Source: Lytechinus pictus | Taxonomy: Eukaryota | Assembly: GCF_037042905.1 (NCBI RefSeq) | Contig: NC_087251.1 | Coordinates: 41,976,001 to 42,040,000, forward strand | Direction of reading: 5' to 3' | DNA length: 64,000 nt | Shown: in pieces, positions 16,009 through 60,077 of the stretch | How positions within the stretch are numbered: the first letter of the stretch is position 1 | How the letters are laid out: every line of letters begins with the position of its first letter | Position numbers and translations under genes: made by a program | The notes under the pieces: generated by a model | What the model was told of the DNA's origin: nothing | Databases searched by the model: none | What the model saw: the letters and a program-made list of their open reading frames with translations, nothing else

Positions 16009-16113
16009 AATAGTAGTAGTAGTAGTAGTATTAATAATGCAGCAGCAGAAGAAGTAGTAGTAGTAGTGATAGAAGTAGTAGTAGTAGTAGTAGTAGTGGT
16101 GGTAGCAGCAGTA

Positions 16114-16180
<67 letters not shown>

Positions 16181-16201
16181 GTAGTAGTAGTAGTGGTAGT
16201 T

Positions 16202-16234
<33 letters not shown>

Positions 16235-16280
16235 TTAGTAGAAGTAGTAGTAGTAGTAAAAGTAGTAGCAGCAGTAGTAA

Positions 16281-16330
<50 letters not shown>

Positions 16331-16350
16331 TAGAAGAAGTAGTAGTAATA
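16009..16350. repeat. (AGT)n microsatellite, ~340 bp, imperfect
   Basis: Direct inspection. Confidence 0.98.
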
Positions 16351-17416
16351 ATAGAATAGTACTAACTCACTCACATAGTACTAACTCGCTTTGCTCCATC
16401 TCTCTGAACTGACGCCATAATGTGCAAAATAGGTCCAGAATTCTCAAATTCTCTCACTAAAACCGGAAAATTTTTCTAATATTTCTTTATAACATCTTTT
16501 GTTGGTTTATATGTATTTATACATCTTTGTAAATTTTCTCTTCAAATTGGAATTTTGGATCATTGCAAAGGAGGTAGGTTAGTAGTGGAGGTAGCATAAA
16601 ATCTTGCTGATTGTATACACTGATTATGAAGCTGTTGACATATGGAACGTGTGGATGTCTAGAAGATGGTATCTTTAAAATGAGTGTCAAAAAACCAATG
16701 AAAAAAAAAACTGTGTAGCGGATGTTCACATTTCATTCTGTATTCTACATTAGTAGTAATCATCACAGTATGATGATGAGGGTAACTTTACTCCCATCAT
16801 TTGCCCATATATTCATCAGATAAACCTCTTAATCAGTGACATTTAAGTTCTAATTAACATCCGTTATTCAAGTTTCAAGTATGTATATATTGCAGAAATC
16901 AAACTATAATGGTTTGTTTTGTGCTTAATCTGTTTCATCAAGGTGCAGACTTTTGATGAAGAGGCAATATGAATATTTGCTCAGATCCCTTTCTTACTTC
17001 TGGTTGCCCCCTCCCCATTCCCTGTCATTGTCATCGATCACATGAATGCATTTTTTTTTTTTAATAAAGTTTTGTTTTTTTCTCCAGTTTCTTCAAAATC
17101 AGTTTTACCTATTGAATTTGCCTTTTGCATATTGTGTATGTGCAGTTTATTTTATTATTCATTTATTATATATTTACGTACTTACTCTTACTCATTTATT
17201 TACTTATGGGGTGTTGCAAGAAACTTGCGATCAATGTCAAGCCCATTTTTGGTCCCTTAATCAAGTGTATGTCTTGCAATTAATTGCAAATTTGCAATTG
17301 ATTGCTAATTTGCTCCTTGAAACATGGAATGTAATCTGATTTGCTATTTTATTTTATTATTTTATTTATTAACAGAATATTTGCAATTGATTGCAAATAT
17401 TTTCTTGCAACACCCC

Positions 17417-32917: not shown

Positions 32918-34365
32918 ATGTATAAGGTCGAGGATGCATCCAGTCGCCAAGTAAAGCGACACAGAGCTGATCACGGTCTACCTACAGGCAGTCTTCATAC
33001 AAAAGTCAACGGTTTTGCCAGCATCAACGGTGTGTTCCAGGAAAATGTCGAACACAACTCTGAAGTTTTGAGGAACTTGCTAAATTTGAATCGTGGCAGT
33101 CCTGCCAAGTCCTTCAGTTTGTGCAGTGATACAGAATCACAAGATTCTTTGACGCAGGACAGATTGACTGAGAATCGTCGCGGATTACTTGATTTAGAAG
33201 AGCAAATTGTGAAGAGCGCAGATACTGAACTTGGTGGGAATTGGCAAGCTAGAAAGTTGGAGTGCGCAAAGGTACCCAGTGAGAGTGGAGATTCCACAGC
33301 CATGCCCACTGCAGAAACCGCAATGTGGGAAGAGTGTAACGGATCAACTAGTCCAATGCAAGAAACAGATAGTCTCAAAGCCAAACGCGCCCGAGTCGAA
33401 AACATTATCACAAGTATGAGGCACTCACCACCAGCAGTAGGGGGCCAAGAACCTTTGGGTTTAGAGGACAGTCTTCGCAAGCCAAAGCGAAAGCAATACC
33501 AACCGCAACCCCAGCGATGGGACTCTGAAGACGAAGACTCTCCAGGAAAACCATCCCGCAAACAAGAGAAAACTAAGCTCAAAGGGATCCTATCCCACCT
33601 TCAAACGCAGCTTGATACACTTCAGGAGAAATACCTCAACATGTTTGATACGGAAGACGATGGTAATCTATCAGACAACTCAGACGACATGGACGATTTA
33701 AATGAACCAGTTGACACAGGTAGTGCAATCCCCAAATACGAGGTCAATGGTGTCAGTGGAAACAGCTCCCCTGTTCGTCATGGAAACGATAGAAAACGAA
33801 GAGCCGATGGAAGTTGTGTTCTTGATCGCACGACAAGTTATATCGTAAGACAAACGTTGAAGGAAGAGTTGCCCCCTCTCCTCCTCAATGCTGTAGACTC
33901 TGTTATGAATAAACTCGCGAAAAGCACCAGCAGCAAAAATACCAGCCACAACAACTCAACCCACACCAAGACTGAAATCGGTAGTAACCAGGGCCGAAAT
34001 CCAGTACTAGCCCGGAATGCTGCGAGCCCCCCTGCCCCAGCCCAGGAGTGCAAGCCGACACCTCCCCCGCCAACCCTCCTTCACCCGAGCTTCTTTATGA
34101 GGCCATTCCCTACACCATTGGAGCAGACAGAAGCCATGTCATTGGTGGTACCGAGTCGGAAGAGGGTGAGGAGCAATGACCGACCCCTTCACGCCAGCAG
34201 CGGGTTCCATCCTGGAGATCTACCAATGAAACCTGAGCCTCTCCTACCGGTCAGCTTACCCACCTCCGTGGCCATACCCAACCCCAGCCTTCACCCTACC
34301 CTAGCTGCCAGCTTCATGGCACCAACCATGGCCACGGATCCAAGGGAGCACTTTGAGAGCCTCAG
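32918..34365 (+). CDS. Prox1: Prox1/prospero homeobox protein, coding exon 1 (N-terminal region)
   Basis: 490-aa ORF. The first ATG is at 32918, after an in-frame TAG at 32876. Prox-family motifs: SSRQVKRHRAD (like the vertebrate SRQTKRRRVD NLS), VLRNLL (LxxLL), AKRARVENIITSMRHSP, RKPKRKQYQPQ, a coiled-coil LQTQLDTLQEKY, EQTEAMSLVV and LPTSVAIPNPSL. Acceptor: pyrimidine tract plus CAG at 32769-32771. Donor: CAG|GTACAT at 34366 (phase 2), or CAT|GTAAGA at 34372. Confidence 0.93.
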
Positions 34366-40229: not shown

Positions 40230-40443
40230 GTACGCCGGAAGTCCTCTGATCCCCAACTCTCATCTATCTCCCCTCAACTACCTGAGTGACCACCGGTCAT
40301 CTCCTGGTGACCTCTCCCATCTTTCTGGGGAGAGCCCGGGCTACCCGATGATAAAGCCAGAGGGAAGGGATACTTCACCACTTCACATGCACGACAGACC
40401 CAGCTCGGCTGATCTCTCAGACTACTCGCCAGTCAATGGAACA
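40230..40443 (+). CDS. Prox1: Prox1/prospero coding exon 2 (Ser/Pro-rich linker)
   Basis: Pyrimidine tract plus CCAG acceptor ending at 40229; phase 2 matches exon 1. Open frame YAGSPLIPNSHLSPLNYLSDHRSSPGDLSHLSGESPGYPMIKPEGRDTSPLHMHDRPSSADLSDYSPVNGT; IKPE and SP resemble vertebrate LIKSE...ISPYSG. It ends directly at the U12 donor ATATCCTTT. Confidence 0.85.
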
Positions 40444-43400
40444 ATATCCTTTCTCATATTTCTTTTAACAAATTATAAAGTTAAGAAGGGGATGAGGAGG
40501 GGGGGGGGTGAAGTAACACCTGCTGAAATTATCATTGGTGTTATATGTATAATTTGTTTTTTCTTTTAAAAGAGCGGCCCACAACACTTACTTCCAAAAA
40601 GAGTAGTAGAAAATATTTTTTTGTATATTTCATATGAAAATGTTGTACATAATCAAACAAACCAAAAATTGCTTTAGCTGTCTTCTTTGTAAACAAATGG
40701 AAGTAAAGCAAAACATATTAGCACTTCGATTTGATATATCATTAAAGTTGACTACAGTAATTCAGTTTATTGACTACAGTAATTTGACCCTGGCAGTCCA
40801 GTGGGTGCTCAATCTATACGCTGTTATGTTTATTATGTGTTGTACTACACTGTACCAATTTCTTATACTTTTCATTGCCGAAATGAATAATGATGATAAA
40901 GTCACTATTACCCTAAGAGGAATCATATGCATATGTTATATTATTCAAGCTATTAGAATTTGCATCTTTTAAACATTTCGTTCATTGATAAATGATGAGA
41001 ATTGGAGAATTATAATTCACTACCAGGTAAACAGTGATTTATTAGTTATTTTGACAAATGGACCATCAATGATATAAATCCAACAAAATCTTTTTTTTTC
41101 TTTTACGTTTTGTACATTTCTTTGATTATGACGAGGATCCTGTCATTGTAAGAATCCTTTCAGCAGCCGCCATGTGACACATTTTATCTTGAAAATGAAA
41201 AGAAAGTCCATATCAGCCGTACATGCTATTCCTATTCTCTTAGAAGATGACAATCACCTGACGGTAATTATTTCCCAAATGATTACAAGCTGCCACGATG
41301 AGGCTTAATATCAACAGTTTCCACAAGAAATAAACATAATGGAAGTGAATTGGTCCCATCTGGATGTCATATTTGTTACTTTCTCTATCATTTCCCAATT
41401 TGTTCTTCCCACTTGATTAAAATTTTAATGTATGCGGTCATTTTCTTATTGTGATTGCTCCTCCTTCCTTTCCCACGACTTGCGGGCCGAACGTAACCAC
41501 CAAAAATAGAGATTCGAGACAAGATTCTTGACGGTCAGCCATGCAAAGGAAGTGAGTTGAGATCAATGTTTTGGATCTGGTATCTGGTAATGCTATCATT
41601 CAGGAAATTGCGTGCCAAGCAAACCAGTTAGAGTTACTCTCAAGACTCCTTTCAAGTAAGCACTCGGAAACCAACCAACAATATCATGTGATCGATCTTG
41701 GCCACATTGTTTCACTTGGAAAAAGAAAGCTGGTATTATTGTATCACTTCTCAGTCTTGACTCGACTTGACTGTTTTGGCATTGTAAACCCTTGTTAAGA
41801 TGGCCTTTAAGACATAGACAATGCACTCTGTCTTCACGTTTATTTTCACTTCATTCAAACACTTCCAAGAATAAAAATAAAATTCTCAAGGTTTATATCT
41901 CTGGAAAGGTTCCTAGTTTGATACTAGAAGTGATGAATGGAGAAATGGAAATCACATGTAACACTCATTTTGCAAGGAAAAATAAATTGCCTATATTTCT
42001 TCTATAGAAATAGTATTTCAATTTTATTCCACATCTCTTGAATGTCACAAACAACATATAAAAAACAGCACAGTTATATACAAGACTATAATCACCACAT
42101 AAATACATGTTTTACAAAATATGCCCCCAAAACAAAGAAAAACACAGTAAAGTCTAGCAAATGATGAACAAACATTCCCTGCAATATCTACTTTCTACCC
42201 AAGGGTTTTTCAGGAGTATAAATGGGAGCCCAACAACAGTCTAATCATTCTCAATGGTGTTTGAGATGTATGAATTCAAATTCTTTTTACTTTTTTATAT
42301 TATTAATTTTTTTTAATTGGGGGGGGGGGCTCAAAGTTTATAAATCATTGGGGAGCTTGCCATCCCTATTTTACTGAATCTGGTTAAAATTTAAACTTAG
42401 ACCATATTTATATTATCTTCTGGCTTATTATTGATATTTCTTTAGGTGTGTTTGCTCCTGAACTCTGACAGATTAATCCATATCTTTATTTCTCCTGATA
42501 TGCTCCCCCCTCCATATCTCTCCCTCTCTCTTTCATCCAATCTCTGTTCTTTCTCTCTCCATCTCTCTTTTTCCCTTTCTCTCTCATTCTCTCTCTTTCT
42601 TCATCTGTTTATATACTGTACCTACCTATCTATCTATCCATCTTTCCCTGTATTTCCCCTACTAGCTACCCATCTCCCTCTCTCTCTCTCACTCTCTTTC
42701 TCCCTTATCTCTCTGTCTGACTTTCATTTCCCTATGTCATTTCATTCCAGACAAGTTGATTTCATTCTCCCATGCTCTCTTTAGTGTATGTGTTGCTTAT
42801 TGGTCTCACCGCAGTCTCACTATACTCAGCTGAAATTGACGAAATAAAGTTTGAATTGATTCATAAATCTTGGCTGATATGATGATCACAGTCAGAGGGC
42901 AATGTACTTTCTCGTCGGCATTGCTTCATATTCTTTCCTTCAAATGCCAGTCTTTGACTCGCTGAACTTGTCGCCATACCTCAAAAAAAAATTATGAGGA
43001 GCCCTTTCTTATCTGGCCGCTGAGGGGTTTTAGGTCTTTTGTCTGATTTGGGGCCAAAGTATTTCTCAATTATTGTTCATATGCCCATCAAAGATTGAAA
43101 AGGCATTTTGTCCCCTGATTTCCTTAAGGATTCTTCTTGTTTTATGAAGCATGAGGGGTAATGTAGGGACATCACTATGCCTGATCAGTTGCTTACGCTT
43201 TAAGACTGCCTCAAGAAATGGAGGATAAAGTAGACGGAATGCCTTATTTGTCGCTCCTTTCACAGTGCTTCCAATTTCCATTTCCTTTCTATTTTCTTTT
43301 GCTGTGCAATCAATTGAAATTAATTCTTTTTCATTCTCTCATGATTTCAATGATTTACATTTCTTGGATGGAAGCAAAATTTCATAGTTCTTTAATGAAA

Positions 43401-46316
43401 ATATGAAGAAAAAAATCATCGTCTTTGAGTTGAGGGTCAGGGTTTGTATGAATGCATGTATGGAATTATTAGGAAGCTGGGAAATATGGGGGAAAGTAGA
43501 TGGTTCAATAAAACAAATTCGTGGGTGTTTTCTTGTTTCCCACCAGTAGGGCCGATGGTTCCATTATACAGTGATTATTTCTTTTAAGAATTGTGGCATT
43601 TTGAAAGGATTTCCTGAGTCTATGCATCATAATTCTTTCTATTTGACCAAAATCTTACTTGATTTCCATCAACTTTGGTACTTCTTCTGACCACAATATC
43701 ATTCTCTCTCTCACTCTTTAATTGTCACTCTGCTCATTGATATCTTCCACAAATGAAGATTGATTTTTATTGATGTTGCAAGAATACCATCAATCATAGC
43801 TTTCTTTGGATAACTGGATATTAATCTTACTTAGCCTTGGCTAAAGATGGTTTGATTGTGTCTATTCATAGAGGCAATGATTTGCCATAGAGAATAGAAA
43901 CAGTAACCAAGTTACTTATTAACCCTGTGGAGAAAGGAGAGAATAAGTTAACCTCAGCATCATGAGCAATTATTAGTAAATAATTCTTTCTTCTCAGTCA
44001 AAGAAGAGAGGAAGTAGTGGTTTTCTGTTGGTATCTCAAAAGACAAGGCATCTATCTCTTCAATATAGTGAATTGTTATTCCCAGTCTCATCTTTTGTGA
44101 TGCTCGGAAAGACCCATATAAACGACTCCCGGTTTTGTCCTATTCTCTTTCATTGGTTACAAAAATTGATTTGTTTTGTGGTAACAAGGCCATAGTTTTT
44201 TTTCCCAAGCTATTATGCCACTTTTCCTACATTTTGCTTTAGTGTCTTTCTCATAGAATAGAATCGTTCCTTTAGATGCTGATTTTGACTTCCCACCGAG
44301 AGCCTTTGTTAAGGTGGATCTCCATCATAACTCCAGATCGATGGAAGTATATATATATCTATATCTCATCGCCCTATTTTGTTTCTTCCCTAGAACGATT
44401 AATCTTTATGAAGAATGAACCCTGTGTGGTCATTCCCATTCAGACGTAGCCAAGCTTTGGGGGTAAACAGCTCTCTCTCTCTCCCACTACGTCCTTCTTC
44501 CACTTCAGTGCCGACGCCCATTCAAGATCAAACCCTCTGCCTTCATTTGGCTTATCTCATCCCAGGTTCTTGCACTTTTGCTGGGAGTCCCTTTCAAGAA
44601 GCCGCTTCATCCGTAACAGACTCAAACCCTTATTGTTGCTCGTACCTAGAAGCCGAAGCACAGCTTGAGGATCAGGGTGGGACTTTATGCGACATGTTAT
44701 TCTTGATGAGACTTTGGCATTGGCCGGTTCTACATGGCTAGCCAGCCATCGTCCCCCCATTCAAACCCTCCGCCACTTGCCTCTTCCTCCACCATACCCC
44801 CAGAAAAAGAAAAAAAAATTGTCAGGTTTCCATTTTAAATATCCAATCATCTTTTCATTGTTTGCTTGTAGATTAGAAAGCCCCAAGACTATGACGGAGA
44901 ACAATTGACAGGAAGATTTTCCCTTGTTTGGTGTGATGGGGTCCCCCGAGCTCCTCTAAATGTTTCATTTCTGAACTTCACCAAATTGATGTCGGGGAGT
45001 ACATGCTCTTTTTCTTCATTAAATGATCAAAAATGAAGGATATGTGAGAGGCCATGCATGACCCCTGTGATTAGACTAATTGATAGCAAGCGTCGAAAAG
45101 TAACGACAAGTCTGTTCTGCCGGTGTGCCGCAAATCACCTCTCTTCTCCCATCATATTTCCGCTAAATTTCCATCATTATCATTACACTCTGATTAATTT
45201 CCTCTCTTTCTCTTTCCCCCTCTCTCTCTCTCTCTCTTTTATTTCTAGCCATCTTCTCTCTATACGTATTTAGCACAAAGAACGTCATGTACAAAAGATT
45301 ACGTTGTTTGCTGTGTAATCTTGTACTTGCCGTGAGAGTGTATCTCTTTTTTTGTTCTTTTATCTTCCTTTCATCTCCCTAACTCTGTAAATCTCACGGA
45401 CCAAGTCAATATGAGGCTTAACTTGTTTTGTAGTTCCTTCCCCAAGTCTGTCTAAGTCCCTTATCATATTTTTTTGAAGAAACTCTGGGTGAATAGAAAC
45501 GCATCCAAATGCAGAGTAAACCGTGCATTCTTCCATACAAAGAAAATCATAAAGCAAACATAAGAATCTTATTCATTGGCTTTGAGTTGGCATATAGCGT
45601 GAGATATTCTCTTTTTGCCCGAAGGCTGCTCAGCAGTGCAAGAAAAGGTGTAAACACGTAATGTGTAGAGGAGACCAAGGATGAAAATGGCCTTGGATAT
45701 CTTGCCACCAAAACTGGCACGAATAGAAAAGCCTTCTTTTCATACCAGTCCACCATGTCTTTTTTGTAAGAAAATAGTTTCTGCTTGGTCATGTTTTATT
45801 GCATCTGCTACCATCTTTTATCAGTACGCCATTATTGGTGTTGCTTATTTTTTCTTAGTTCTTCCTATTTGTTGACAGATTTACAAAATATTTGTCTGTC
45901 CCGGGATAGTTTTTTTTAGTAATTCCTTGAAATATGGAATATTTTGGGGTGTTTTTTTTTGTTTGGATTCATTTGCTTGATTCATTTAGAGGCCCTTTAA
46001 GGAACAAGATTAATTGCATGACTAAATGTAAAAAGATATCTGAGTGAACTCCAGACAATGCATTAAAACTGCTTGTTTGATTTTATTGCATTTATATACT
46101 TTCTTGATGACCCAAAATATAGGAATCTCATTTATTCCATCAAATGATGCAACTCTTGCAAATAATTTCAAAGAGAAAATAAAATTGTCATTGACTCTTA
46201 TATCATACTTCCCTCCCAAAGTGGTAGTATTTTCTTGAATGTATCAGCATGATTAACATGTTTACACATGTGGATATGAAATGCAATATAATGTATTTAC
46301 CTTAACTGACCAATAC
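40444..46316 (+). other. U12-type (minor spliceosome) AT-AC intron of Prox1
   Basis: 5' end ATATCCTTT (40444-40452) is the U12 donor consensus. Branch site TACCTTAAC (46298-46306) lies 10 nt upstream of TAC| (AC at 46315-46316). There is no pyrimidine tract and no AG in the last ~69 nt. The phase-0 join keeps the frame (...[12 protein letters not shown]...). Confidence 0.93.
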
Positions 46317-46622
46317 TCGATAACTTGTACCCTGACACCGACCCACCTGCGGAAGGCCAAGCTCATGTTCTTCTTCGTCCGCTACCCAAGCTCTGCTCTT
46401 CTGCGTCAACATTTCCCAGACGTCAAGTTCAACCGTCACAACACCTCCCAGATCATCAAGTGGTTCAGTAACTTCAGAGAATTCTATTACATTCAGATGG
46501 AGAAGTTTGCCCGTCAGGCCGTCAGTGATGGTGTAGAGAGCACTGAAGATCTTAAGGTGACCCGGGATTCAGAGCTTTACCGGGCCCTCAATCTCCACTA
46601 CAACAAGAGCAATGAATTTACA
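46317..46622 (+). CDS. Prox1: Prox1/prospero coding exon 3 (atypical homeodomain and start of Prospero domain)
   Basis: [68 protein letters not shown]...[17 protein letters not shown] is the diagnostic homeo-prospero sequence. Donor ACA|GTAAGT at 46623, phase 0. Confidence 0.97.
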
Positions 46623-49600
46623 GTAAGTCCATTTTCAATGTTTTCTCTCATTAAAGAAAATGAATACATTCACATTTGAAACCGATGAACTGTTTATTCA
46701 TAGATTAACTTTTTTATTTTATAGCTACTCTTCAGCATCTATAAAAATCCCAGAATTAAGAAATGTTTGAGAAAATGAAGGAAAATGAATATTCATTGCA
46801 TTTTTTGGCCTAATTTTCTTGGAAATAAAAAAGCTTCTTTATGAGTAAATGGCAATTTGGCATATTTATGATAGACTTATTGACAAAAAAATGTTTTATT
46901 TCTTTGCTTATTTATTTGTTGTTCTGCTATATTGACTTGAAAGACGAGTGTGGGTGTTTGTGGAATTTATTTCACAAAACAACCCCCGGCACATCTATTT
47001 TCAGGATTTAGATATATCTATTATTCACAAGTGTGAAGAAAGCAGACAAAGTGGTGTTTCGGTCCTGTATGCATGTCATTTGCTTTGAAAACAAAAATCA
47101 ATCTATTCTTCTCTTGATTAATGTTTTTCATTATTTGAGAATGATTTGTCTTTGAACATATTGGTCAAATTTTCCAACAAATATAATATTCTATATACAA
47201 GTAAATGTCAACAATTAATAAGGAACGTTGTTTTTTTTTTTTTTTTTTTTTAAGAAAGAAAAGAGATTAAGTTCCCACTGTCCCTTTTAGATCGAAAATT
47301 CTGTGGTAATTTCTCAAATTGTTCGTAACTAATCAATGATGGAAGAAATGATATACCCTGTCCTCGTTATATTTGAACTGATCTGTTTACGGAAGGACAT
47401 TCCTTAACCAGCAGTAAGGAAAATAGGTTTTTATCAATAAAAAATGAGAATCAATCTTCCATGACCATTGTCAGCCACTGAAACTTAATTTGAAAGGACT
47501 TGAATATTTACTTTAACTTGTTGACGTGACTATTCAGCCGAACAAGGCTAAGATGAGAAAGATGCTTCCGTGAATGATATTCTTAATCTGTCTCTTGTTT
47601 TTGTGTATTTTTGGTTTATTCATCGATTGTTTGGCAGTTTCTGGCTGATATGTTTGTTTCTGTTAATGATGACTAAGTGTATCTTCTCCAATTGAAAACC
47701 CAGATCTTTAAACCGCATTGGTAGGCTGCATTGTCCATCACATCCATATTTAATGACGATTGCTGTTTGTTTTGATGGTGTTGTCATCTTTGTTTAAGCA
47801 TTTCATACATGTACCATGACATGACACATCTGTGTGCACATGAAAATGAGAGTGACTTCGTGCATGTCTCAATTTTCATGATTTGATAAATAAACATACT
47901 TGATAAATCAACATACTTATATATTTGATGTATAAACCTACTTATGTCTCGTCATGTACTGTAACATCTAATATTGGATACTCTTCTGAGAAAGGGTGCA
48001 GATTTCTTAATCCTTATTCCAATTTTTCATAGTTTTTACAACCTAAGTGTCTTGAAATCGAACTACTTTGCACTATACAAAAGTATGCTTATTGTTTTGT
48101 TGATAGAAAAGAGGCTGTTGCCAAAAAGTTCATGGTTGACAGCATGCCCCAGTTATCTTACAAATGCTGATCACTGATATTGTGTTTGTTTGTTTATTTG
48201 TTTGTTTATTCAAGTTGCTCTCATAAAGCCTTTATAACCTTAACTTTGACGCTATGAATAACTCTTTAATGAACATGGAAGTGACCATGAATTCTTGAAT
48301 AATGAAACAGCAAGATTTATAGCATTCATTGTGCAATTACCCTGGAACTATCCCAAATATTAAAAAAAACAGTAATATCTTGGAAATAAGTACTGAAGGT
48401 ATTCCTGTCATTAACAATACTTTACTTAATCTCTTTCCTGTCATTTGGAATATTGTTTCAATATAATCATGCCATCATACTGTCCTTTCTTGTCAAATAA
48501 TAATGGTCTATGAATAAAGTAATTTATTTACCTGCACTTAAAATCATAATCTCAATGCTCAACCCTCTTTTCAAAGAAGACGGAGCTGTGTTTTTAAAGG
48601 AAACAATTGCAAAAGACTGTCGATCTTAGGTTCAAAGTGCTTCACAAAATAATAGGCTGTAATCTGAATAAGGGTAATGTTGATAATCAATCGATCAATC
48701 GATGTGAAAAATAATTGATGAATTAATGAATACATGCTAATATCTCCTGGGAGTTAAGATACGATTCATTCCTACCATTATTACAAAGATAATCAATATT
48801 CTCCATTTCAGTGCTTGTTATCTGAGAAGTGATTAGAATCTTAGCTGTGTTAAGTCATCCATATATCTTTCATAGATATGAAACTTTAAAGTATGAATAA
48901 TTAGATTACATCTCAGCAAGTTCTCTTGAGAACTGGATCCAAAACGGGTTCTTGACGTTTTCTTTGGAACGAACATGTCTGCTGCCCTCTTTTTCCTTTG
49001 TGTAACGGCTTGTAAATCCTGAATTAGTAAAGGAAGGAAGGTATCTCATAGAGCATTTCCCACTTAGGTTAGATGGGCAATAATAGTGCATTGCACTATG
49101 GTCAGCTGATCATTGCTAGGTGAATATCAATGGACAAAAATATACACAAATCATGCTTCTTTGCATCTGTGGGTTGGTGAAGATTTAAATTCCAGAAATT
49201 GTATGTTTGGTCTGTCATTTTGATCAATCTACGACTGTTCAATCAATATATTCATATTTAACAATATCTTTGTTGATTTCCTTACACTATATTGGTCCAT
49301 CTCCATTTTAGTAAATCTGTTTCCCTTTTATTTGTATCTCCTTTCATATTCCCCTCTGTCCCTGCCCCCCCCCCCCCCCTTGCTTGCTCTCTCTCTCTCT
49401 ATATTCCCTAATTCATCTTGTTATTTTGGTATTTTAGCTCTCAATTTGTATATGTTTCTCATTATCTGTTTTTCTTTTCTTCAAATTTCCCTCTAATCCC
49501 AATCCATCCTTATGGTCATCAGCCTTGTTTAAAGAATAGATGCTCCTCATGACTTGTTTTTTTTATTTATGTTTTTACCAATTCAATCTTCGATAATACT

Positions 49601-52600
49601 TTCTCAGTACTTTGTCATTCACGTAATCTGGGACACCAACTACACAGTCATGAATGAATAAAAATTCCTCGGTCCGATGTTAATGTCCTCATCTTTACAT
49701 GCTTCCCAAATTGATGCCGCGGAAACGAGAAAAAGGAGAGGGGGGAAAAAACACAAAAAGTTGGTTATCTTGAATTCCTTCCGAAAAAAGTACAATGACA
49801 TTTCATTCCAATGGATGTTATGATCAAGACAATTACCCACCCCATTACTTTATTCTACTTTTCAGCCAATGAGCAGCTCACTCATATTCTGTCATTTTCT
49901 TGACAGAGAGGGTCCATAAAGCAGGAATTTTTCTTAATCATTAGCTCCTAGTCTTTGTGAAAATCATATATAGGTTGATTACACTATTGCTGGGTGTTCA
50001 GGTAGCCCTATCTGCCAATAAGAAGGAAAAAAAATCTAATTTTCTTCCCAAATTGCGTGTCATTGGCAAGGACATTGCCTTCTGTACTATTCAGAAGCCA
50101 AAGAAAAGGAAACAAAAATAGCATTTTCTTGCTCTCTGTATCTACCTGGCCTTTTCATCAGTGGAAGTGCGTGTTTTGTGTCAAGAAAAAGAAACAGAAA
50201 TAACTAATGGGATATATGTCAGTGAGAGGAAGATACCTATTTGGAATATATCTTTTCACTTTACTCCATCATTAAAACAAAGTTTCCTGAATCAATGATA
50301 CTCTGACCTTGCTTGCGTATTATCCTTTCCGAAAAGAAATTAGAAGACTCTAGTTTTTCACTCTTGCTAGAGCTGTACTCAAAATAAACAATTGGTAACA
50401 AATTATTGTCCACATAGGAAGCTGTAATGATGAATTCTAATTGGCTTGCCATTTCTATTATCAGCAGGCATCATATTTTCATGCTTTTTTAACTTATTTT
50501 TTTTTTAAAGTAATAAGAAATTTCATACCAGTTTCTTTTTCAAACTATTAATTAAGATTTTGGTTTCTTGACTTTCAACTAAAAAATTGGTTGAAAGTAA
50601 TGACAGTAATAATAATTATATTTGTATTTTTAGGTATAGGTATAGGTAAAAAGTAGGGCTGATAAAGTATATTATCCAATAACTTTTATATTAATTCCAT
50701 TATAATTATCTATGATTTGATGAGATGATTGGGATAAAATAACCATCCTGAATTAAAAAATTGATACCCGGATGTTGTTGAGAAAGAATTTCTGGTTCTT
50801 AATTCTACTTGCTAGGTGTTAACTGGCATTACATTAATATGCTCTTTAAATGATTGTGTGTTTCAAGATTATGTAAGTTTTGCTTTGTACCATATGATAC
50901 AAAGGACTCTTTCCCTTTAGTATTGAATATTTCAGGTTAAGAAGGAACCACCTTAAACTTTATTTGGTACTCTTTCAGGCTGATTTGAACTTTTTTTAAA
51001 TCAATCTTTAAGTTTGCCACTCTTTCTCTACCTCTTTTTTTTTGACATCAGAAGGAGAGGGAGTCTGTTGCTTGTCTAAGAATCCTGAAGGTTTCTTGAT
51101 GTATCCTTGACAAGTGGACAGTTCATATCAGAGTAAGATAGGTCCAATTAATAATGATAGTTGACTCATAATTTCCATGGTCAGTCAGATACTTTGAAGA
51201 AAGTACAAAGAAAGGTGTCTTCACAGATTAAAGAGGAAGTGACACCGATTTTGCTGAGAAAGAAAAGGATCTGTGTTTATGTTTCCTTCTTATCCTCATT
51301 CTTATGTCACCACTTCCTTGTCCATGGAAGTAAAAACAAGATACAATTTAATGGTAAATACATTTCCTGATAAGAGTATCCACTTCGATTTGCTTGGTCA
51401 TGATGATTAGAAGAATGTAAATTGAGAAAAATAAGACTGGCAGACATACAATTATTGCTTGGCATAGATATCTGTTTTTGCGAGAGAAAAAATGGATTAG
51501 CAAAAAAATGTCTTGTTTCTTACGGGATTTGAAGATAATCTGTAACAGATAGGATTTCTTCTCAGGAAGGATGTTGAGTTGATTGAATGAGTTCTGTGTA
51601 TCAGTTTTAAAGAGAAAAACATCAGGTCAAGTATTATTTCCTAAGTTGAAATGACATTTTTTGTTCTCTTAAACAAGCGACATTACTGTTTGAAAGGAAA
51701 TCAAAGAAAGTAAATAGATAGATAAGATACAAAAGAGGTTTCATCTGGAGTCTTTTATTCCTAGCAATGTCAAGAGAGATGATGGTAAAAAGAGATTGAG
51801 AGTAATTAATCATTCTAATTGGTGTCCTTGATGATACCGTATACTTGCATCACCTTCATCCATCCTTGTCCACTCCCACAGTCGGGCTTCCTCTAGACCC
51901 TAACTGCCCATGCTCAGAGCATCTCACAGAAAGCATACTCACTGCTCTCCTTCCACCCCACCCTACCCCACAGCATCACCAATCAACATTGTCCCAGGTA
52001 ATTGGAGGTGGCACAAACTTGCCACAAGGTTGATTGGTAAAGACTTGGCCGGCCCCCAGACCCAGTTAAGGTGTTAGTGGCATTGTGTGTCTCATGGTGA
52101 TCTTGATTCAATTTCTGAAGTGTGGTGAACCAGCTGCTATTGTCACACCTCCCTCATCAGATCATATTGGCCCGGACCCTCGGCCGTTTTTTCCGTCTCG
52201 TCCCCGTCCTCATGATATTTTCTAGGGTTGGCCATGTCAGACCTCCCCCATCACTCACCGATTCTTACACCTCCAAGAGGCTTGGTTCACCGGTACTTTT
52301 CCTTATGAGAAAACCATCCCCGGGTTAACATGGGTGACGGGTATTCATACCGACCATTCTCCAGCCCGATGGCTTTGATGATGGGTGCCCTTAACAGCAG
52401 ACCATCTTTCACTCGGCCTGGCATACAATAAGACATGACAGATTACTCTTGAATCTAATTGCTGCGTCCAGCTCCCTTGCATAGCTCTCCCAACAAGCTG
52501 GGTGTGTAACAATTGAGAGCCTCCAACGTGTGACTGAGTCAAGGTTGTATTTGTTAATGGGGGTAATAAAAGAAATAAACAAGTATAAAGAATATGGGGA

Positions 52601-55090
52601 AAGAGGCTGCATCTGATGGCCCAAAAGCAAGGCTGGTGGATTCAGAATTGTGCCGTGTGGAATCTTGTTCTTTTTTTTTTTATTCTTTTTCTCTTTGCCT
52701 CCATCCATCCATCCTTCATCTTGTACTTTTCTGTTTGTTCCCTCCACCCCTCGCACTCCCATTAACATAGAGAGGAAAGAAAGCGGGTCGGTAATTGATG
52801 TAACAGAAGGTTCAAAGGAAGCCAGAGTTCAAAGTACTTTTGAGTCATGAGCATAACCAATGTCTCAATCTTGATAAATGTTCACCGTCTACCCATTCAC
52901 AATATCAAGGGTACATGGTTATTACAGGGTGGTTTGTTAAAACACTCAAAAAAAGCGCCACGATATCATTTCCTTCAGCGTAGTTTATTTTATTCATCCC
53001 TGTAAAATTGGTACTACTTTCGGCCTGTTATAGTTGTTCGCATGGCGCTAACAACTAGATTCTGTCCCTAGGAAATGTTGCCAACATGCCAAATCCTAGT
53101 TTTCTTAAATGAATGCCCAAACCATTCTGTCTCTCAATTTGTCAGAGAAAATAGTTGATAATTGCGTGATTAGTTTGTTAGGCATTACAATCACGATTGT
53201 GATGTAAACTTTCATACCCCAGTTGAAATTCACTATGTTGATATGTCATCATAAATTACTTATAATAAAGACTGAAATCAACAAAAGGACATCCTTGAAA
53301 CTTTGTCCAACAAGTGATATGCCATCAACGACAAATCAACAGGCGTGGTGATTAAGTGCTGAGGCTGGATTAATTCCCATATTGTACAAGTCAACATTAA
53401 ATCAATTTCATCCAGTTTGAAAGAAATTAGCCCTTCGCCAACAGCTACTTGTGTTTCATTTCCAGCTCCCCATATCTACCTCCAAGTCTCTAAATGTCTA
53501 GCTAATTGGGAGTCGCGTCATAAAAAAGCAATTACCGCATCATACCATCCTGCCATTTAGAGGTTTCAAAAATATATTGCAATTTGATTGCACTTCTTGT
53601 GTCTAAAATCCTCAGCATTGGCGCCTAATATCAGGAAATCTTAGGTAGCGTGCAGGAGAAATTAAACAGCGTCTATTAGATCCTTACCGGGATACACCAC
53701 TCCGCAAATCTGAGTTTATTAATAAAAAATGGAGTGATTACCGAGAAAGTGGTATCGGACAGAGTGTGATCCATGAGAGCTTAGAAAGAGTTTCAAGGTA
53801 CATAAAGCCTTAATTGATTTGTTAGTCCTCAACTAAGCTTTGCCCTTCGTCTGTACTTTTCTGTGGGGAATCTACAAGTAGATGCAACAGGTCTGTATTT
53901 TGTGTTGCTAAGGAAACGCTAGGGTTTTATTTAGATCCTTGGTTTGCCAATGAATACTCTTGCCGGTATAAGTGCATTATGGTTAGGAGACACTGATAAA
54001 GCTTACTTAATGCCCTAGGATTACAGAGGGAAAGGAATATGCCACTTAGTCACTTTAACCATTTTCCTTCAAGCCACATTGGTAGAAAATTACTGCATAA
54101 AAGGGGGAGGAAAATTACACTTTTGTATGCCAATAAGGGGATCCTTGACTGCCGATTAGGAGATAAACAGTTGGGACAATGAATTGCAGAATTGCTGGCT
54201 GGGTCGGCTGCTGTGGTATTTGGGACGGAAGCAGCGCCGCACGGAATCAGACGGGAGGGTCGGGGGTGTTGTTTCGTTTAGGGCATCTTGAAGAAGCAAA
54301 AGGGCTGGTGTAATTGGATTACAATGGATATGAGTGTAGGGTCCCTGTCAGTCACACCCCTTGGTCTTTACATCCTTGTTTGTGTCATCCCCACAAATTA
54401 GAGCCTATTTGTAGAAGGCTCATTTGGTAGACTACTCATCCTTGCCCATCCTCTGTCAGGGACTCCCATTACCATCTCAGGTTCATAGTACTTTTTCTTC
54501 TCTCTGTCTCTCTCTCTCTCCCTGTCTCACTGATTTGGTTGGTATGTCTCTTCTGTAAACTCATCTTCTGCATACCAGTATCATTCTCCAGGAAAGGGCA
54601 CCCACGTTGCCCTGGCTCAGTCAACATCCTTCTCTTCTCTCTTCATCTTCCATTTTGCCAACCTTCATTCATACTATATCCCCCTTCTCCCTCTGTTTGC
54701 ATCCTGTTTGTCTCTCTCCTCCCCCCCCCCCTCTCTCTCTTCCTTTCTCCCCCTCTCTATCCCCTTCTCTCTCCATCTCTCTCTTTCCTTCAGTGTAGCG
54801 AAGTGTTGCAGATGACCGTGAACCACACAGTGCATTGCTACAAACCATTTCATTGTTTTGATTCCTTACTCCTCTGCTTGTCAACACTTCATTGGCATCC
54901 TAGACACGGTGGTGGATAGATTAGGAAAGACCTTTTTTTCTCCATCTCCCCCAATGGCTCTTTATTTCTTTCATATTCATACCTTAATTCCTTTATTTAC
55001 CATTGTGTTGATGGATCCAATGCTCTGGTAGGAAGCATGGCCTCAACACTTGTCTTCAATCAGGAGTGGGTGGTTCTCATCAAGCAGCTA

Positions 55091-55410
55091 CATTCTTCTC
55101 ACCCCCTCTTTTTTAAATTACTCCTACCAAGGATGGCATCAACACGACTTTCTGTATGGTGTAAACAAATAAACAAACAATAGAGCATATAGCTACTAAA
55201 TCTGTTGTATGTATCAAATAAAATAACTTAAAGCTTTCTACCCCCGCCTCCATTCTTCTCACCCCTCTTTTTTTAATTACCCCTACCAAGGATGGCATCA
55301 ACATATCTTTTCTGTATGGTATATAAAAAATAACAATCTACCATAGCTACTTGTACATTAATTTTTATCAGTCGTAAATATAAGCAGAAATAATCTGAGC
55401 TTTCTGCCCC
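55091..55410. repeat. Tandem duplication of a ~160-bp unit in Prox1 last intron
   Basis: CATTCTTCTCACCCC..CCTACCAAGGATGGCATCAACA..TTTCTGTATGGT occurs at 55091 and 55251. Confidence 0.88.
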
Positions 55411-57921
55411 CTCAACACAAAGATAATAATAAAAGAAAATAAAGATCTTAAATCCCCATCTATCTGTTACAATCTTCTGTCGTTCAGTTTCTCTTTTCCT
55501 TCTGTTGTCTCTCCCTCTTATGTTTAACTTTTATCTGTACAATGACTCCTGTTTGCTACATTCATGTTGGCATGTATCTCGTCATGTGTATTCATTCTGT
55601 TGCCTCTCATCTTTATATCTCTTCATCATGTTAACCATCTGTTATGAATTCTTACGCCTTCCATGTTTTCAGCCTGGTATTATTTACTATATTGTGTCAA
55701 CTCTTGTTGAGGTTCTTACACACATGTCATTAAGGTGTGGTAGACTTGATGACAGATGATGATACGGATCACCTTCTGCTCTTTTCTCATTTCGTTCTAA
55801 TATCTTGGCTTGGCGGAACAAGGTTAAGTTGATTTACTTTACCGACACCCATGCAGCAAAGTCTCAACAAAAGAGATATTGAAAAAATGCCAGGAAATAA
55901 ATTCAATGTAAATCTCTCACTGTCCGCAGTGCCGTCGTGTTGCCAATTTACCTTATCCTGTAAGATCTTTTTTGCTTGGTTATAATATCACAGTTATTAG
56001 AAATATCAAGCATCCACCGGCCAAATGACAAAACTTTGTTGACTTAATGAATTAGGGCCTATCTATTGAAAATTAAGAGGTTAATTTCTGGGCAGCCTTA
56101 TATGTAGTCAAGAAAGCTTTGTTAGCAAATGGATTGAAATAAAACATGAAAATGCAATTATTGTCTTGTGGTGAATGTGGATAAAATGATAGAACATAAT
56201 TAATAAATTAGCCTCTATTTCACTAGCTACTAGTCTTTATGATTAGGTTCATCCTCTCTCTCTCTCCCTCTCCTTTCCCCTCCCCTCTCCCTCCCTCATT
56301 CTCTATCAACCTCTCTCTGATATTTCTCTCATTGTCTCTGTCTCTTTCTATTTTGCTCTATCTCTTGTTTCTTTCAGTAACTGCCTCTTCTTATCTGCAC
56401 TTCCCTTGATGATTATTTCCAATTGAATCTAATTTTGTGAGAAGCATGAATTGTGATGACTGACAATATCATGAATCACCTGTCAACTATGACAGAAAAG
56501 CGACACACGGAGATCGAGCTGAAGAATGACTTCCATCTTACTAACTAAAATTGAAATTTAATGTCCACCTGAAGCAATTGAGAATAATATATTTATTCCT
56601 GTGCATAGGAAAGGAATGAGAAAAGTGCTTCTTGGCACAAGGGTGACTAAAATAATGACATGCATGGGGGTAACATATCATATTTTGGTGATGTAAACTT
56701 TGATAACAATGATATTTCTATCTTGAGTACAGCAGTGCATATCCTGTTAACATCTCTATGCAATTCAACAGGATTTTGGATGTTATTACCCATGTCTTAT
56801 AATAATTGTTTGCAAGTATTTTCATTGCTGTTTTTGTTGTGTTCAGCATCATTATTGATGTTCTTGTCATTATTCCATCTTCATCATCATCTTCTTCTTT
56901 TTTTTACCAAGAGCACCATTTTGCATTCACCAAGGTTCATACTTAAGCCCATGGTTAAAACTTCCTAATTTAGCAAATTCATATCAACTTAAATGCCATG
57001 TTTTTCAGTGTGATCTTAAAATAATGAGACATTTTGAAGATATTAGGCATGCAAGTAGCTTCTAAATCCAAGGAAGGATGTTACCATCTTATGTTTCATT
57101 GTGACTGAGGTCATTTTTGTTGATTCTTTCATTAAGTCATAATAAGAATGATTTAACTGTTAATCACTTAATGTGTCTCATTAACTGATTGAGAATGCTT
57201 CTTTTGGACTTTCTCAATTTTAATTACCTTCAATTGTTTACGAAAATTCTGTGACACTTCTTTGGCATTTCTACTCTCTAATAAACAAATAATGAATCTG
57301 AAGAGTGAAATATGTTTGTTTGGTCATTATGAGTCCACACCTGTTAGTATTCACTCAACATGTTGTGATCTTTGATGATCAACTTGGCTTAGCCAATATC
57401 TCATAATGCTGATTTCAAGTCCATGATCTTGTGAGATAGCTGATCTTTGATGTTTGACTCATGCCTCCTCTTGATGGCTAGTAGCTTAGTGCTTCTCTCC
57501 AGATAAAATTCCTTTGATCTCAAAGATGGTTTAGCAATGAATGAATAATGTATGCTAAGAAAATGAAAGAATTTTTTTTTTGGTCTTCTGTTTCTCCATG
57601 ATAATATAACTTAAGGAATTATGTAAAAAAAAGAACAGAATATTGATTTGTATCAGTGATTACCAATGAAAACCTTGATGTCCATGTGTTTGGAAATAGA
57701 TGCGTGGCCGTATTATGGAAACATAAAGATTAATATCATCCTCTTTATAAATGTATATATCAAGTATTTGACATTAATGCATTTCCTGCCCTGATGATCA
57801 TCCTTGTATACACCGCACACAAAATTATGTTTCATCTTTCAATCTCATCGATAAAGAATCAATGCCCATTTTCTTTTCTCAACCATTTTAACGATTTCAT
57901 ACATCTTGTGTGTTTTTACAG

Positions 57922-58104
57922 GTACCCGAAGGCTTCTTGCATGTGTCTACCACGACGCTTCGTGAGTTCTTCACAGCGATTAAGTCCGTCAAAGACACCG
58001 AACCTTCCTGGAAGAAGACTATCTACAAGGTGATTAGCAAACTGGATGAACCTCTTCCTCCGTTCTTCAAGAATCCAAACTGCCTTGATCTACTGCCTCT
58101 CTGA
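57922..58104 (+). CDS. Prox1: Prox1/prospero terminal coding exon (C-terminal Prospero domain)
   Basis: TTTTTACAG acceptor, phase 0. VPEGFLHVSTTTLREFFTAIKSVKDTEPSWKKTIYKVISKLDEPLPPFFKNPNCLDLLPL* matches the Prospero domain C-terminus. TGA at 58102-58104. Confidence 0.96.
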   Translation, partial: VPEGFLHVSTTTLREFFTAIKSVKDTEPSWKKTIYKVISKLDEPLPPFFKNPNCLDLLPL

Positions 58105-60077
58105 CAACCAAGAGCAGTCTGGAAAATGTAAACTTATCTCTTTCAAAATGAATCCAGAAATATCTTGCAATTTTTATAGAACTGCGTATAAAAGCAGGAA
58201 CATCTGAAAACTAAAGCTTGATAATTCAATAGCAACATCATACTTCAAGCAAGAGCATCGAGACTGAGAGAAGGAAATGATATTGAAGAGACAAACTGTG
58301 GCAAATTCCACCACAGGCAAGCCAATTGTGATGAATTTTCTGGTGAATTGATATTTTGTATTTGTACTTATTCCCCTTCCTATTTCTAATTCTATATTCC
58401 ATTTTGAAAAAAAAGTCTTCTCTATATTCTTACTATGTATTTATCCTGTGTGGATGTGTTTGATCAGTAGTTCTTTCTTGTCTGAACACCACCTGTTTAT
58501 TCTATTGTACAATAAGAGATGAACTATACATTTTTGGTATGTTGCTTCCTCTAAGTGTATAGCAATGTGAATAGAAACCATGTCTTTCATGTACGTAGAT
58601 CTCGTCAAGTTTTCCACTCTAGATATCTTTCATTACTGCAAAGATCTTTTTGTGATAGCTAATTGATTCTTACCCCCTGCATAATAATGAAAGCTGTGAC
58701 TTACGAGGGCTCTTTTCAAACAAAGCCCCAGATGGCTGGCCGGTTTGAATTGAATTTGTCACCTTTTTGCTAAATATTTAATGTCAAGGTTTTGAATGAA
58801 GTTGCAGAGTTGTATGGAGTTTGATTAAGTGATAAACAACCCCTTGCATTTTTGCATGATGAATGTCTTTCTGCCTTATGCTTGACAATTTTCCAAACTT
58901 TTTTTGTATCTCACACAGAGTAATTAACTCTTTCCACCCTTGCTTGTATTGTTTGCTCGAGAATCGAACTTGCTCGCTTCCTAGAAAGGATGCTCTCCGT
59001 GAAATGCGAATAATACTTGAATCCTAGAAGGAACCGGTAATCATTTTACGCAGCCCTGTCGAATATATGGTGTGCTCCCTCATGATTTGTCATGAATTCA
59101 AAAGATGGTTTGATGAAGTCAAAGAGGCTGGAAGACAAAGTTGATTTATCTCCTGCACCCCCAATGCAGACCCTGGGCGAGAAGCCTCCCTGCGCCATAG
59201 GGGCTTGAATGCATTATGTGCTCTTATCGACCAACAGACCGCAATAACCTATTCATACCGACCACAGTCCTTAGTCGGCAAAGCATGCCCCCATTGTACA
59301 TCTGCTATCATCTCTTTTGTTCATGTATCCCCACCATTTAAAACTCATCTCAATCACAAAACACAAGTTTATGACCACCGTGATTGATGACACTGTCTGA
59401 CAATTTTTTTTATATCAAACACTCCTCTTGCTTCCTAAAACCTTAGGCTTGCCATTTTCCTCCGCTGCTGTGAGAACGAAACCATGTATACAAGAGCCTG
59501 CCATATTATATGCTGATTCGATCTGAAGCAGTCGCATTGTTTGTGATTGCAAAAAAAAGAATTGTGAATATTGTGCCATATTCTGAATTGATTCTCAGAA
59601 AAAAAATAGTTTTGTAGTTTATAGTTCTAGTATAGTCTTTGAAAGTTTCATTTGCCATTTAAATGCAGTGCTTTGATAACTAGAAATAATCCTATATATT
59701 ACTACTTTATTATTAGTTCATATTTCTATGGATATGTGTGTGCATGAACTATATCAAAATCATTCTTCCTCATTTTATTGAATAAATCATGTCCACAATA
59801 GAAATAAAATGAATCCAAAGCATTTTCAGTTTTGAGAGCAAGACAAAGCCACCATCATATTCACTAAGTTACCATTATACAAAGATTGAATTATCTGTTC
59901 CCCGTTTATTTGTATTTTACATAAAGTCCCAAAATTAATCAAGCAGAAACCATTTAGATTTATTTTCAAGATTTCTTTTCAGATTTTAACACTCAACAAA
60001 AATTATATTTGTTTGGGTGTGTTTTCTATATAAGCATATCTCATAAAATTGTTATTTGCTTTTATGATTTGAATAAA
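58105..60077 (+). other. Prox1 3' UTR (minimum extent) with candidate poly(A) signals
   Basis: Follows the stop codon. AATAAA at 59781, 59803 and 60072. The true end could be further downstream. Confidence 0.5.

What the first reader, a model, noticed from the sequence alone, without database searches (positions are those of the whole stretch)
40444..46316. Minor-spliceosome AT-AC intron gates the Prox homeodomain
Seen: exon 2 ends at ATATCCTTT rather than GT. The homeodomain exon is preceded by TACCTTAAC, 10 nt and an AC acceptor, with no AG for ~69 nt upstream. The join is in frame. Established: a U12 AT-AC intron immediately upstream of the homeodomain occurs in Drosophila prospero and vertebrate PROX1, and U12 introns are rare and can be rate-limiting. 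Inference: this 5.9-kb intron is orthologous, so all DNA-binding Prox protein here depends on U11/U12 splicing. GT-AG-only annotation would mis-model the gene. Intron retention would give a homeodomain-less product ending ...ISFLIFLL...CFFF* at 40569.
Basis: partly seen in the sequence, partly recalled or inferred. Interest (0 to 1): 0.8.

Follow-up and report, generated by a model that had tools for sequence, protein, structure and literature searches.

The report
Ancient minor intron in urchin Prox1
This sea urchin's Prox1/prospero gene has a real 5.9-kb intron with rare AT-AC ends, cut out at exactly the predicted places in two transcript assemblies; it is likely removed by the minor spliceosome and is likely the same ancient intron already known from flies and humans, so the call is correct but ordinary.

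Summary
Window 40444-46316 is a 5,873-nt AT-AC intron, phase 0, just before the homeo-prospero exon of the only Prox locus found in this sea-urchin genome. Contigs from two studies join 40443 to 46317 exactly, and the joint cannot slide. Donor and branch site fit the U12 consensus and pair with this genome's own U11, U12 and U6atac genes.

It is very likely the ortholog of the published prospero/PROX1 minor intron: same donor phase, 5 codons before the homeodomain's L[ST]P against 3 in arthropods and 4 in vertebrates. I found no insect-type twintron.

The word 'gates' is unsupported. Retention could not be measured, and a retained transcript would more likely be degraded than translated. Public urchin models already carry the junction (14 of 14), though some mollusc and primate models read through it. 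The scan found this intron before in two other genomes. Ordinary; low interest.

The parts
32918..34365 (+). First coding exon of Prox1 (ATG at 32918). A second in-frame donor 6 nt on extends it to 34371 (+YM).
   Evidence: ORF; gene model against public urchin proteins, with both forms present as isoforms X1/X2
40230..40443 (+). Second coding exon (214 nt), AG acceptor, ends at the minor donor in phase 0
   Evidence: its last 30 nt are the loose letters
40444..46316 (+). U12-type AT-AC intron, 5,873 nt
40444..40453 (+). U12 5' splice site ATATCCTTTC. Pairs with U11 (5 WC + 1 GU of 6) and U6atac (7 of 7).
   Evidence: human and mouse PROX1 list ATATCCTTT
40444..40569 (+). 41 codons read through the donor to TAA (hypothetical retention product, no evidence it is made)
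46296..46309 (+). U12 branch site (CCTTAAC at 46300-46306; candidate branch A at 46304 or 46305, 12 or 11 nt from the intron end). Pairs with U12 snRNA at 11 of 13 positions with one A bulged.
   Evidence: optimum 11-13 nt in PMC3584512
46315..46316 (+). AC acceptor; no AG in 46248-46316; weak pyrimidine tract
46317..46622 (+). Homeodomain exon, Pfam HPD positions 1-97
   Evidence: PF05044 E 4e-54; PDB 1xpx, 1mij, 2lmd; contigs
46623..57921 (+). Following GT-AG intron (11.3 kb)
   Evidence: loose letters behind equal 57925-57954
57922..58104 (+). Last coding exon (rest of the Prospero domain). The 3' UTR runs to about 61600 if the contigs are colinear.

Best explanation
The intron at 40444-46316 is spliced out at AT-AC ends to join the second coding exon to the homeodomain exon, is likely removed by the minor (U12) spliceosome, and is likely the inherited ortholog of the fly prospero and human PROX1 minor intron, acting as an ordinary constitutive intron. 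Shown: the junction, the splice signals, the four minor snRNA families in the genome, and one Prox locus. Inferred from established minor-spliceosome biochemistry: U11 binds the donor, U12 binds the branch site and bulges an A, U6atac replaces U11, and the AC 11-12 nt past the branch A is taken as acceptor. The spliced mRNA encodes a 716- or 718-aa Prox1 with the full homeo-prospero domain. Unspliced RNA would probably be held in the nucleus or degraded rather than translated.
For: Exact joint in 2 of 2 contig runs from two studies, with no sliding possible. Consensus donor, branch site at 11-12 nt, weak pyrimidine tract (0.59 against 0.68-0.82 at the two coding AG acceptors). U11, U12, U4atac and U6atac are all above the Rfam cut-off in G000 and three of them pair with these sites. 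pros/PROX1 are listed as orthologous AT-AC U12 introns (PMC2831892 table 2); human PROX1 has the same donor nonamer and a 6,904-nt intron (PMC6717393 supplements). The donor read in phase 0 gives ISF: this stands at the junction in 5 of 5 arthropod long/short isoform pairs, in a primate model, and in the last 120 aa of 24 of 31 non-echinoderm hits lacking the homeodomain's HL[RK]KAK motif, against 0.014 expected per 120 aa.
Against: Dependence on the minor spliceosome was not tested by knockdown. The distance from the junction to the homeodomain's L[ST]P differs (5 codons here, 3 in arthropods, 4 in vertebrates), so orthology needs a small in-frame indel or acceptor drift in an unconserved linker. 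No other animal's DNA was seen; the ISF evidence is at protein level and mostly from unnamed records. Contigs drop rare isoforms, and only 871 nt around the acceptor were laid. The branch site has A where human PROX1 has T just before CCTTAAC.
Confidence: 0.93

Rival explanations
1. The intron is a regulated, rate-limiting gate: slow or stage-specific minor splicing sets Prox1 dose in mesoderm and neurons. This adds to the best explanation rather than replacing it.
For: Minor introns splice 2- to 5-fold slower and have been proposed as rate-limiting (PMC3584512 section 10). The intron is one of two kept in all insects and vertebrates examined (PMC3291851). There is one Prox locus and no bypass was found.
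Against: No intronic depth in 46020-46316 or alternative joint in either contig run (weak, since contigs drop rare forms). The rate-limiting model came from a few genes and may not be general (PMC6717393). A survey of over 3,000 genomes favours largely neutral persistence (PMC10639083).
Confidence: 0.12
2. An insect-like twintron or another bypass (nested GT-AG pair, or a start inside the intron) gives a second homeodomain isoform without the minor spliceosome.
For: The frame stays open for 41 codons past the donor with several GTs, and for 20 codons before the acceptor with an in-frame ATG at 46281. Mouse Prox1 is listed with cryptic 5' and 3' sites at MSI 1 in PMC6717393 file 6; I read this as a likely AT-AC mapping artefact because many unrelated rows also read 1, but did not test it.
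Against: No AG upstream of the AC gives an open frame; the nearest (46246-46247) is followed by an in-frame TAA. All 47 open combinations use AGs inside the homeodomain exon. Nearby GTs match 3-5 of 9 consensus positions against 7 for the three real donors. 0 of 14 echinoid models show an insertion at the junction. No intronic depth in two contig runs.
Confidence: 0.04
3. It is an AT-AC intron spliced by the major (U2) spliceosome, as known for a divergent subclass.
For: AT-AC ends alone do not define the class (PMC3584512).
Against: Both defining elements (5' site and branch site) fit U12 and pair with the genome's minor snRNAs; the pyrimidine tract is weak.
Confidence: 0.02
4. The intron is U12-type but arose independently of the fly and human one.
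For: Offset of 1-2 codons relative to the homeodomain.
Against: Same gene, same phase, same subtype, within two codons, with the ISF signature across arthropod, mollusc and primate proteins. New U12 introns are very rare (at most one gain in PMC2831892).
Confidence: 0.02

Closest known systems
Human/mouse PROX1 (and PROX2) U12 AT-AC intron (PMC6717393 supplements 1 and 8; PMC2831892 table 2)
   Same: Same gene family, donor ATATCCTTT, CCTTAAC branch core, phase 0, just before the homeo-prospero domain, similar length (6,904 and 6,998 nt against 5,873).
   Different: 5 codons rather than 4 before L[ST]P; branch site ACCTTAAC rather than human TCCTTAAC; one urchin locus rather than two paralogs.
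Drosophila prospero twintron (U2 GT-AG nested in U12 AT-AC; PMC3291851, PMC3564746; the original papers were not held)
   Same: Outer U12 AT-AC intron in the same place and phase; short arthropod isoforms join directly as here.
   Different: No usable nested GT-AG pair here, so no long isoform; 5 codons rather than 3 before LTP.
Public RefSeq Prox1-like models of Lytechinus, Strongylocentrotus and Diadema
   Same: All 14 with a homeodomain read NGT-SIT across this junction. The window's protein is identical to P0077 over its first 657 aa.
   Different: They give no intron class in what I could see; 5 of the 14 lack the last exon, which the contigs here include.

Membership tests
U12-type (minor) intron | Conserved 5' splice site RTATCCTT | tested here: met
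   ATATCCTTT at 40444; same nonamer as human PROX1
U12-type (minor) intron | Conserved branch site (T)CCTTAAC | tested here: met
   CCTTAAC at 46300-46306; 11 of 13 pairs with the genome's U12; one mismatch just 5' of the core
U12-type (minor) intron | Short branch-to-acceptor distance (optimum 11-13 nt) | tested here: met
   11 or 12 nt (range from PMC3584512)
U12-type (minor) intron | No distinct polypyrimidine tract | tested here: met
   0.59 pyrimidine against 0.82 and 0.68 at the coding AG acceptors; a crude measure
U12-type (minor) intron | Excised at the predicted ends in RNA | tested here: met
   2 of 2 contig runs, two studies; the two raw-read runs had 1 and 0 reads and none at this joint
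U12-type (minor) intron | Host has U11, U12, U4atac and U6atac | tested here: met
   3, 4, 2 and 2 matches over the Rfam cut-off in G000
U12-type (minor) intron | Splicing needs the minor snRNPs | not testable with these tools
   needs knockdown or in vitro splicing
U12-type (minor) intron | intronIC or PWM score above threshold | not tested
   no trained matrices at hand; consensus and snRNA pairing used instead
pros/PROX1 orthologous intron | Host gene is a Prospero/Prox ortholog | tested here: met
   PF05044 and PDB hits; 99% to a Lytechinus Prox1-like protein
pros/PROX1 orthologous intron | Same phase and subtype | tested here: met
   phase 0 by the ISF read-through in arthropod, mollusc and primate proteins; AT-AC
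pros/PROX1 orthologous intron | Identical aligned position | tested here: inconclusive
   donor side lies in an unalignable linker; acceptor side is 5, 4 and 3 codons before L[ST]P in urchin, vertebrates and arthropods
prospero twintron | In-frame U2 GT-AG pair nested inside the U12 intron | tested here: not met
   no open frame from any AG in 46150-46316
prospero twintron | Long and short protein isoforms differing at this junction | tested here: not met
   0 of 14 echinoid models; one joint only in two contig runs, rare forms not excluded
Regulatory (rate-limiting) minor intron | Elevated or regulated retention that limits protein output | tested here: inconclusive
   no intronic depth, but raw coverage was 1 and 0 reads

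The most novel reading that the evidence does not exclude
Minor-spliceosome activity is a stage- or cell-type-dependent valve on Prox1 in sea-urchin non-skeletogenic mesoderm and late neurons: transcripts pile up with this intron retained and release homeodomain protein only when U12 splicing rises. This would be a post-transcriptional node missing from the urchin gene regulatory network, and a one-spliceosome counterpart of the fly twintron switch.
Probability: 0.1. Interest if true: 0.5.

Novelty: new member of a known kind. Interest (0 to 1): 0.12.

Why it matters
It adds an echinoderm instance to one of the best-conserved minor introns and suggests the plain single-spliceosome state here, as in vertebrates. 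In practice, GT-AG-only pipelines can truncate Prox genes: four named public models from molluscs and a primate read through this donor. It would matter more only if retention proved regulated in urchin embryos, where morpholino knockdown makes the test easy. Nothing seen here points that way.

Tried and rejected
No RNA holder was listed as such (kinds are guessed or unknown); this is no evidence either way. The two contigs laid are spliced, so they come from RNA. Read data cover only 46020-46890 in 4 of the 21 runs listed: the donor side, the intron interior and the upstream intron have none, so cryptic exons and retention at the 5' end stay open. Raw runs X19 and X20 gave 1 and 0 reads, so retention could not be measured.

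Twintron and GT-AG bypass: rejected on sequence. A crude U2 donor score found none at 8 or more of 9 in the intron, but the real donors score 7, so that scan says little about the interior. Other AC acceptors near the branch site: 46309-46310 is in frame but only 5-6 nt from the branch A; 46323, 46329, 46335 and 46337 are out of frame (positions). Other CCTTAAC and RTATCCTT hits in the window occur at chance level. Second Prox locus: none in two searches (only the best candidates are scored). Rfam scan of the window: 0 hits at gathering score.

Papers: PMC350559 and PMC2636732 (the original twintron papers) were not held, so fly details come from citing papers and from protein isoforms. Searches listed no paper on this intron in echinoderms (listings only; one search showed 20 of 226 and 10 of 540). 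PMC11347168 main text had no hit for urchin or PROX. The one held supplement of PMC10639083 had none for Lytechinus, Strongylocentrotus or prox1; its online database could not be seen and may list this intron. No structure or complex prediction was run, as solved structures exist.
Full report
1. Observation. The sequence is as described. The upstream exon (40230-40443) is followed by ATATCCTTT at 40444. The downstream exon begins at 46317 after an AC. CCTTAAC lies at 46300-46306, and no AG occurs in the 69 nt 46248-46316. The join is in frame, phase 0, and the intron is 5,873 nt. The motifs alone are at chance level in this window (RTATCCTT 4 seen, 4.2 expected; CCTTAAC 5 seen, 4.2 expected). 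Their joint occurrence at the two exon borders has a probability of about 9e-10 for fixed sites.

2. The gene. Exon 46317-46622 is the homeo-prospero domain (PF05044, E 4e-54; PDB Prospero and PROX1). The four coding exons (32918-34365, 40230-40443, 46317-46622, 57922-58104) give 716 aa, or 718 with a second donor 6 nt on. The best hits are Lytechinus Prox1-like proteins, and the first 657 aa are identical to P0077, so this is a sea urchin. Two searches of G000 found only this locus (these score only the best candidates). In related urchins prox is expressed in non-skeletogenic mesoderm and later in ciliary-band cells and neurons (passages of PMC6371548 and PMC8683087).

3. RNA. I laid 4 of the 21 runs listed on 46020-46890. 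The two contig runs (X1, study P1; X15, study P6) each gave one contig whose match starts at 46317. The 30 loose letters before it equal window 40414-40443. The bases on either side of the cut differ, so the joint cannot slide, and the intron ends are AT and AC. Both contigs also continue into the last exon. Neither had depth in the intron or another joint, but contigs drop rare forms. The raw runs X19 and X20 gave 1 and 0 reads, so retention is not measured. The donor side and the intron interior have no read data. At protein level, 14 of 14 echinoid models with a homeodomain read NGT-SIT across the junction, including the S. purpuratus entry with NP_ and GenBank accessions.

4. Which spliceosome. 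The review PMC3584512 (passages and section 10) defines U12 introns by the 5' site and branch site, a branch-to-acceptor optimum of 11-13 nt and no distinct pyrimidine tract. Here the branch A is 11 or 12 nt from the end, and the tract is 0.59 pyrimidine against 0.82 and 0.68 at the coding AG acceptors. G000 holds U12 (4 matches), U11 (3), U6atac (2) and U4atac (2), all over the Rfam cut-off. The donor pairs with U11 (5 WC + 1 GU of 6) and U6atac (7 of 7). The branch region pairs with U12 at 11 of 13 positions with one A bulged. Actual dependence on these snRNPs is inferred, not tested.

5. Orthology. PMC2831892 table 2 (passages) lists pros and PROX1 as orthologous AT-AC U12 introns, a twintron in the fly. 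PMC3291851 (passages) calls it one of two minor introns kept in all insects and vertebrates analysed. Supplement rows of PMC6717393 give human and mouse PROX1 the donor ATATCCTTT and lengths of 6,904 and 6,998 nt. I tested position through proteins, since the donor read in phase 0 gives ISF. In 5 of 5 arthropod long/short isoform pairs examined, the long form has ISF at the junction and the short form joins 3 residues before L[ST]P. A primate model reads SGSA-ISF, and spliced vertebrate proteins have 4 residues there. Among the 76 hits, after dropping 7 homeodomain-less echinoderm-like rows that end at the first intron, 31 lack the HL[RK]KAK motif. Of these, 24 have ISF in their last 120 aa, against 0.014 expected. 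The other 7 are three VSF, one MSF, one ISL, the primate model (ISF further upstream) and one with none. Most of these records are unnamed and I did not see their DNA. The urchin has 5 residues, so the intron shares gene, subtype and phase and lies within two codons; the offset is unexplained in detail.

6. Is there a way round it? Donors 40300-40569 (GT or GC) were combined with AG acceptors 46150-46479. All 47 open in-frame pairs use an AG at or beyond 46356 and drop at least the first 13 codons of the exon, including the first nine positions of the Pfam domain. The nearest upstream AG runs into an in-frame TAA, so the fly's nested pair has no counterpart. Nearby GTs match 3-5 of 9 consensus positions against 7 for the real donors. 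An in-frame ATG at 46281 could in principle start a short protein from an unspliced or intron-started RNA, but neither contig run had depth there. The claim that intact homeodomain needs this splice is therefore well supported.

7. What is not supported. Needing a splice is true of every constitutive intron and is not gating. Slower splicing and a rate-limiting role are proposals drawn from a few genes, and a survey of over 3,000 genomes argues for mostly neutral persistence (passages of PMC10639083). A retained transcript has its stop at 40567-40569, far upstream of the last junction, which predicts NMD by the 50-nt rule used in PMC6717393; nuclear trapping is the other proposed fate. A stable homeodomain-less protein is thus unlikely (inference). 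One result points the other way: PMC6717393 file 6 lists mouse Prox1 with cryptic 5' and 3' sites at MSI 1. Many unrelated rows in part 1 of 7 also read 1, so I suspect mis-mapping of AT-AC joints, but I did not test that. On annotation, urchin models are right at this junction, while named models of Lottia, Octopus, Tegillarca and Pygathrix read through the donor.

8. Novelty. This is an echinoderm instance of a textbook intron. My searches (listings only) showed no paper on it in urchins, but public gene models already encode the junction and the introns.info database, which I could not see, may list it. The original twintron papers were not held. Earlier agents of this scan reported the same intron in two other genomes and several other conserved minor introns in this genome; these are unchecked notes and were not used as support. 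Verdict: real, correctly classed, ordinary. Interest 0.12.

Noticed in passing
window 34366 and 34372: Two in-frame GT donors 6 nt apart at the end of the first coding exon give forms with and without YM. Both appear as isoforms X1/X2 in public models of three urchin species and among Logan proteins.
   Followed up: partly
window 46623-46679 and 57922-58104: Current public models labelled L. pictus (P0077, P0079), and some of S. purpuratus and D. antillarum, read on into the intron after the homeodomain exon and lack the last exon. Both contigs laid here splice to the last exon, so those models look truncated; a rare read-through isoform is not excluded.
   Followed up: partly
proteins P0115 and P0157: The mite Dermatophagoides farinae has long (ISF, +26 aa) and short prospero models like the insect twintron, whereas PMC3291851 describes the twintron as limited to insects (it compared insects and vertebrates). 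These are gene models only.
   Followed up: partly
proteins P0025, P0064, P0076: Three unnamed relatives read VSF instead of ISF at the same place, as a GT-type U12 donor would give. This hints at an AT-to-GT subtype switch in some lineage; DNA not seen.
   Followed up: no
proteins P0027, P0040, P0066, P0070: Named public models (Tegillarca, Lottia, Pygathrix, Octopus) read through the minor donor and lose all or the start of the homeodomain: likely annotation errors from missing the AT-AC intron.
   Followed up: partly
window 46281-46316: In-frame ATG 12 codons before the acceptor; no RNA depth there in two contig runs.
   Followed up: partly
window 44380-44800: A stretch of slightly higher GC inside the intron with a 109-codon open frame; one match in G000 (itself) and no Rfam hit. 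Possibly regulatory; conservation untested.
   Followed up: partly
window 47401-47408: A perfect TCCTTAAC in the next intron, with AGs close behind; no upstream U12 donor in that intron before it, so probably chance.
   Followed up: partly
window 15939-16380: Trinucleotide-repeat tract giving long low-complexity open frames on both strands.
   Followed up: no
window 32772 and 58105-61600: A strong AG acceptor precedes 32772, implying upstream non-coding exon(s). The contigs imply a 3' UTR of about 3.5 kb.
   Followed up: no
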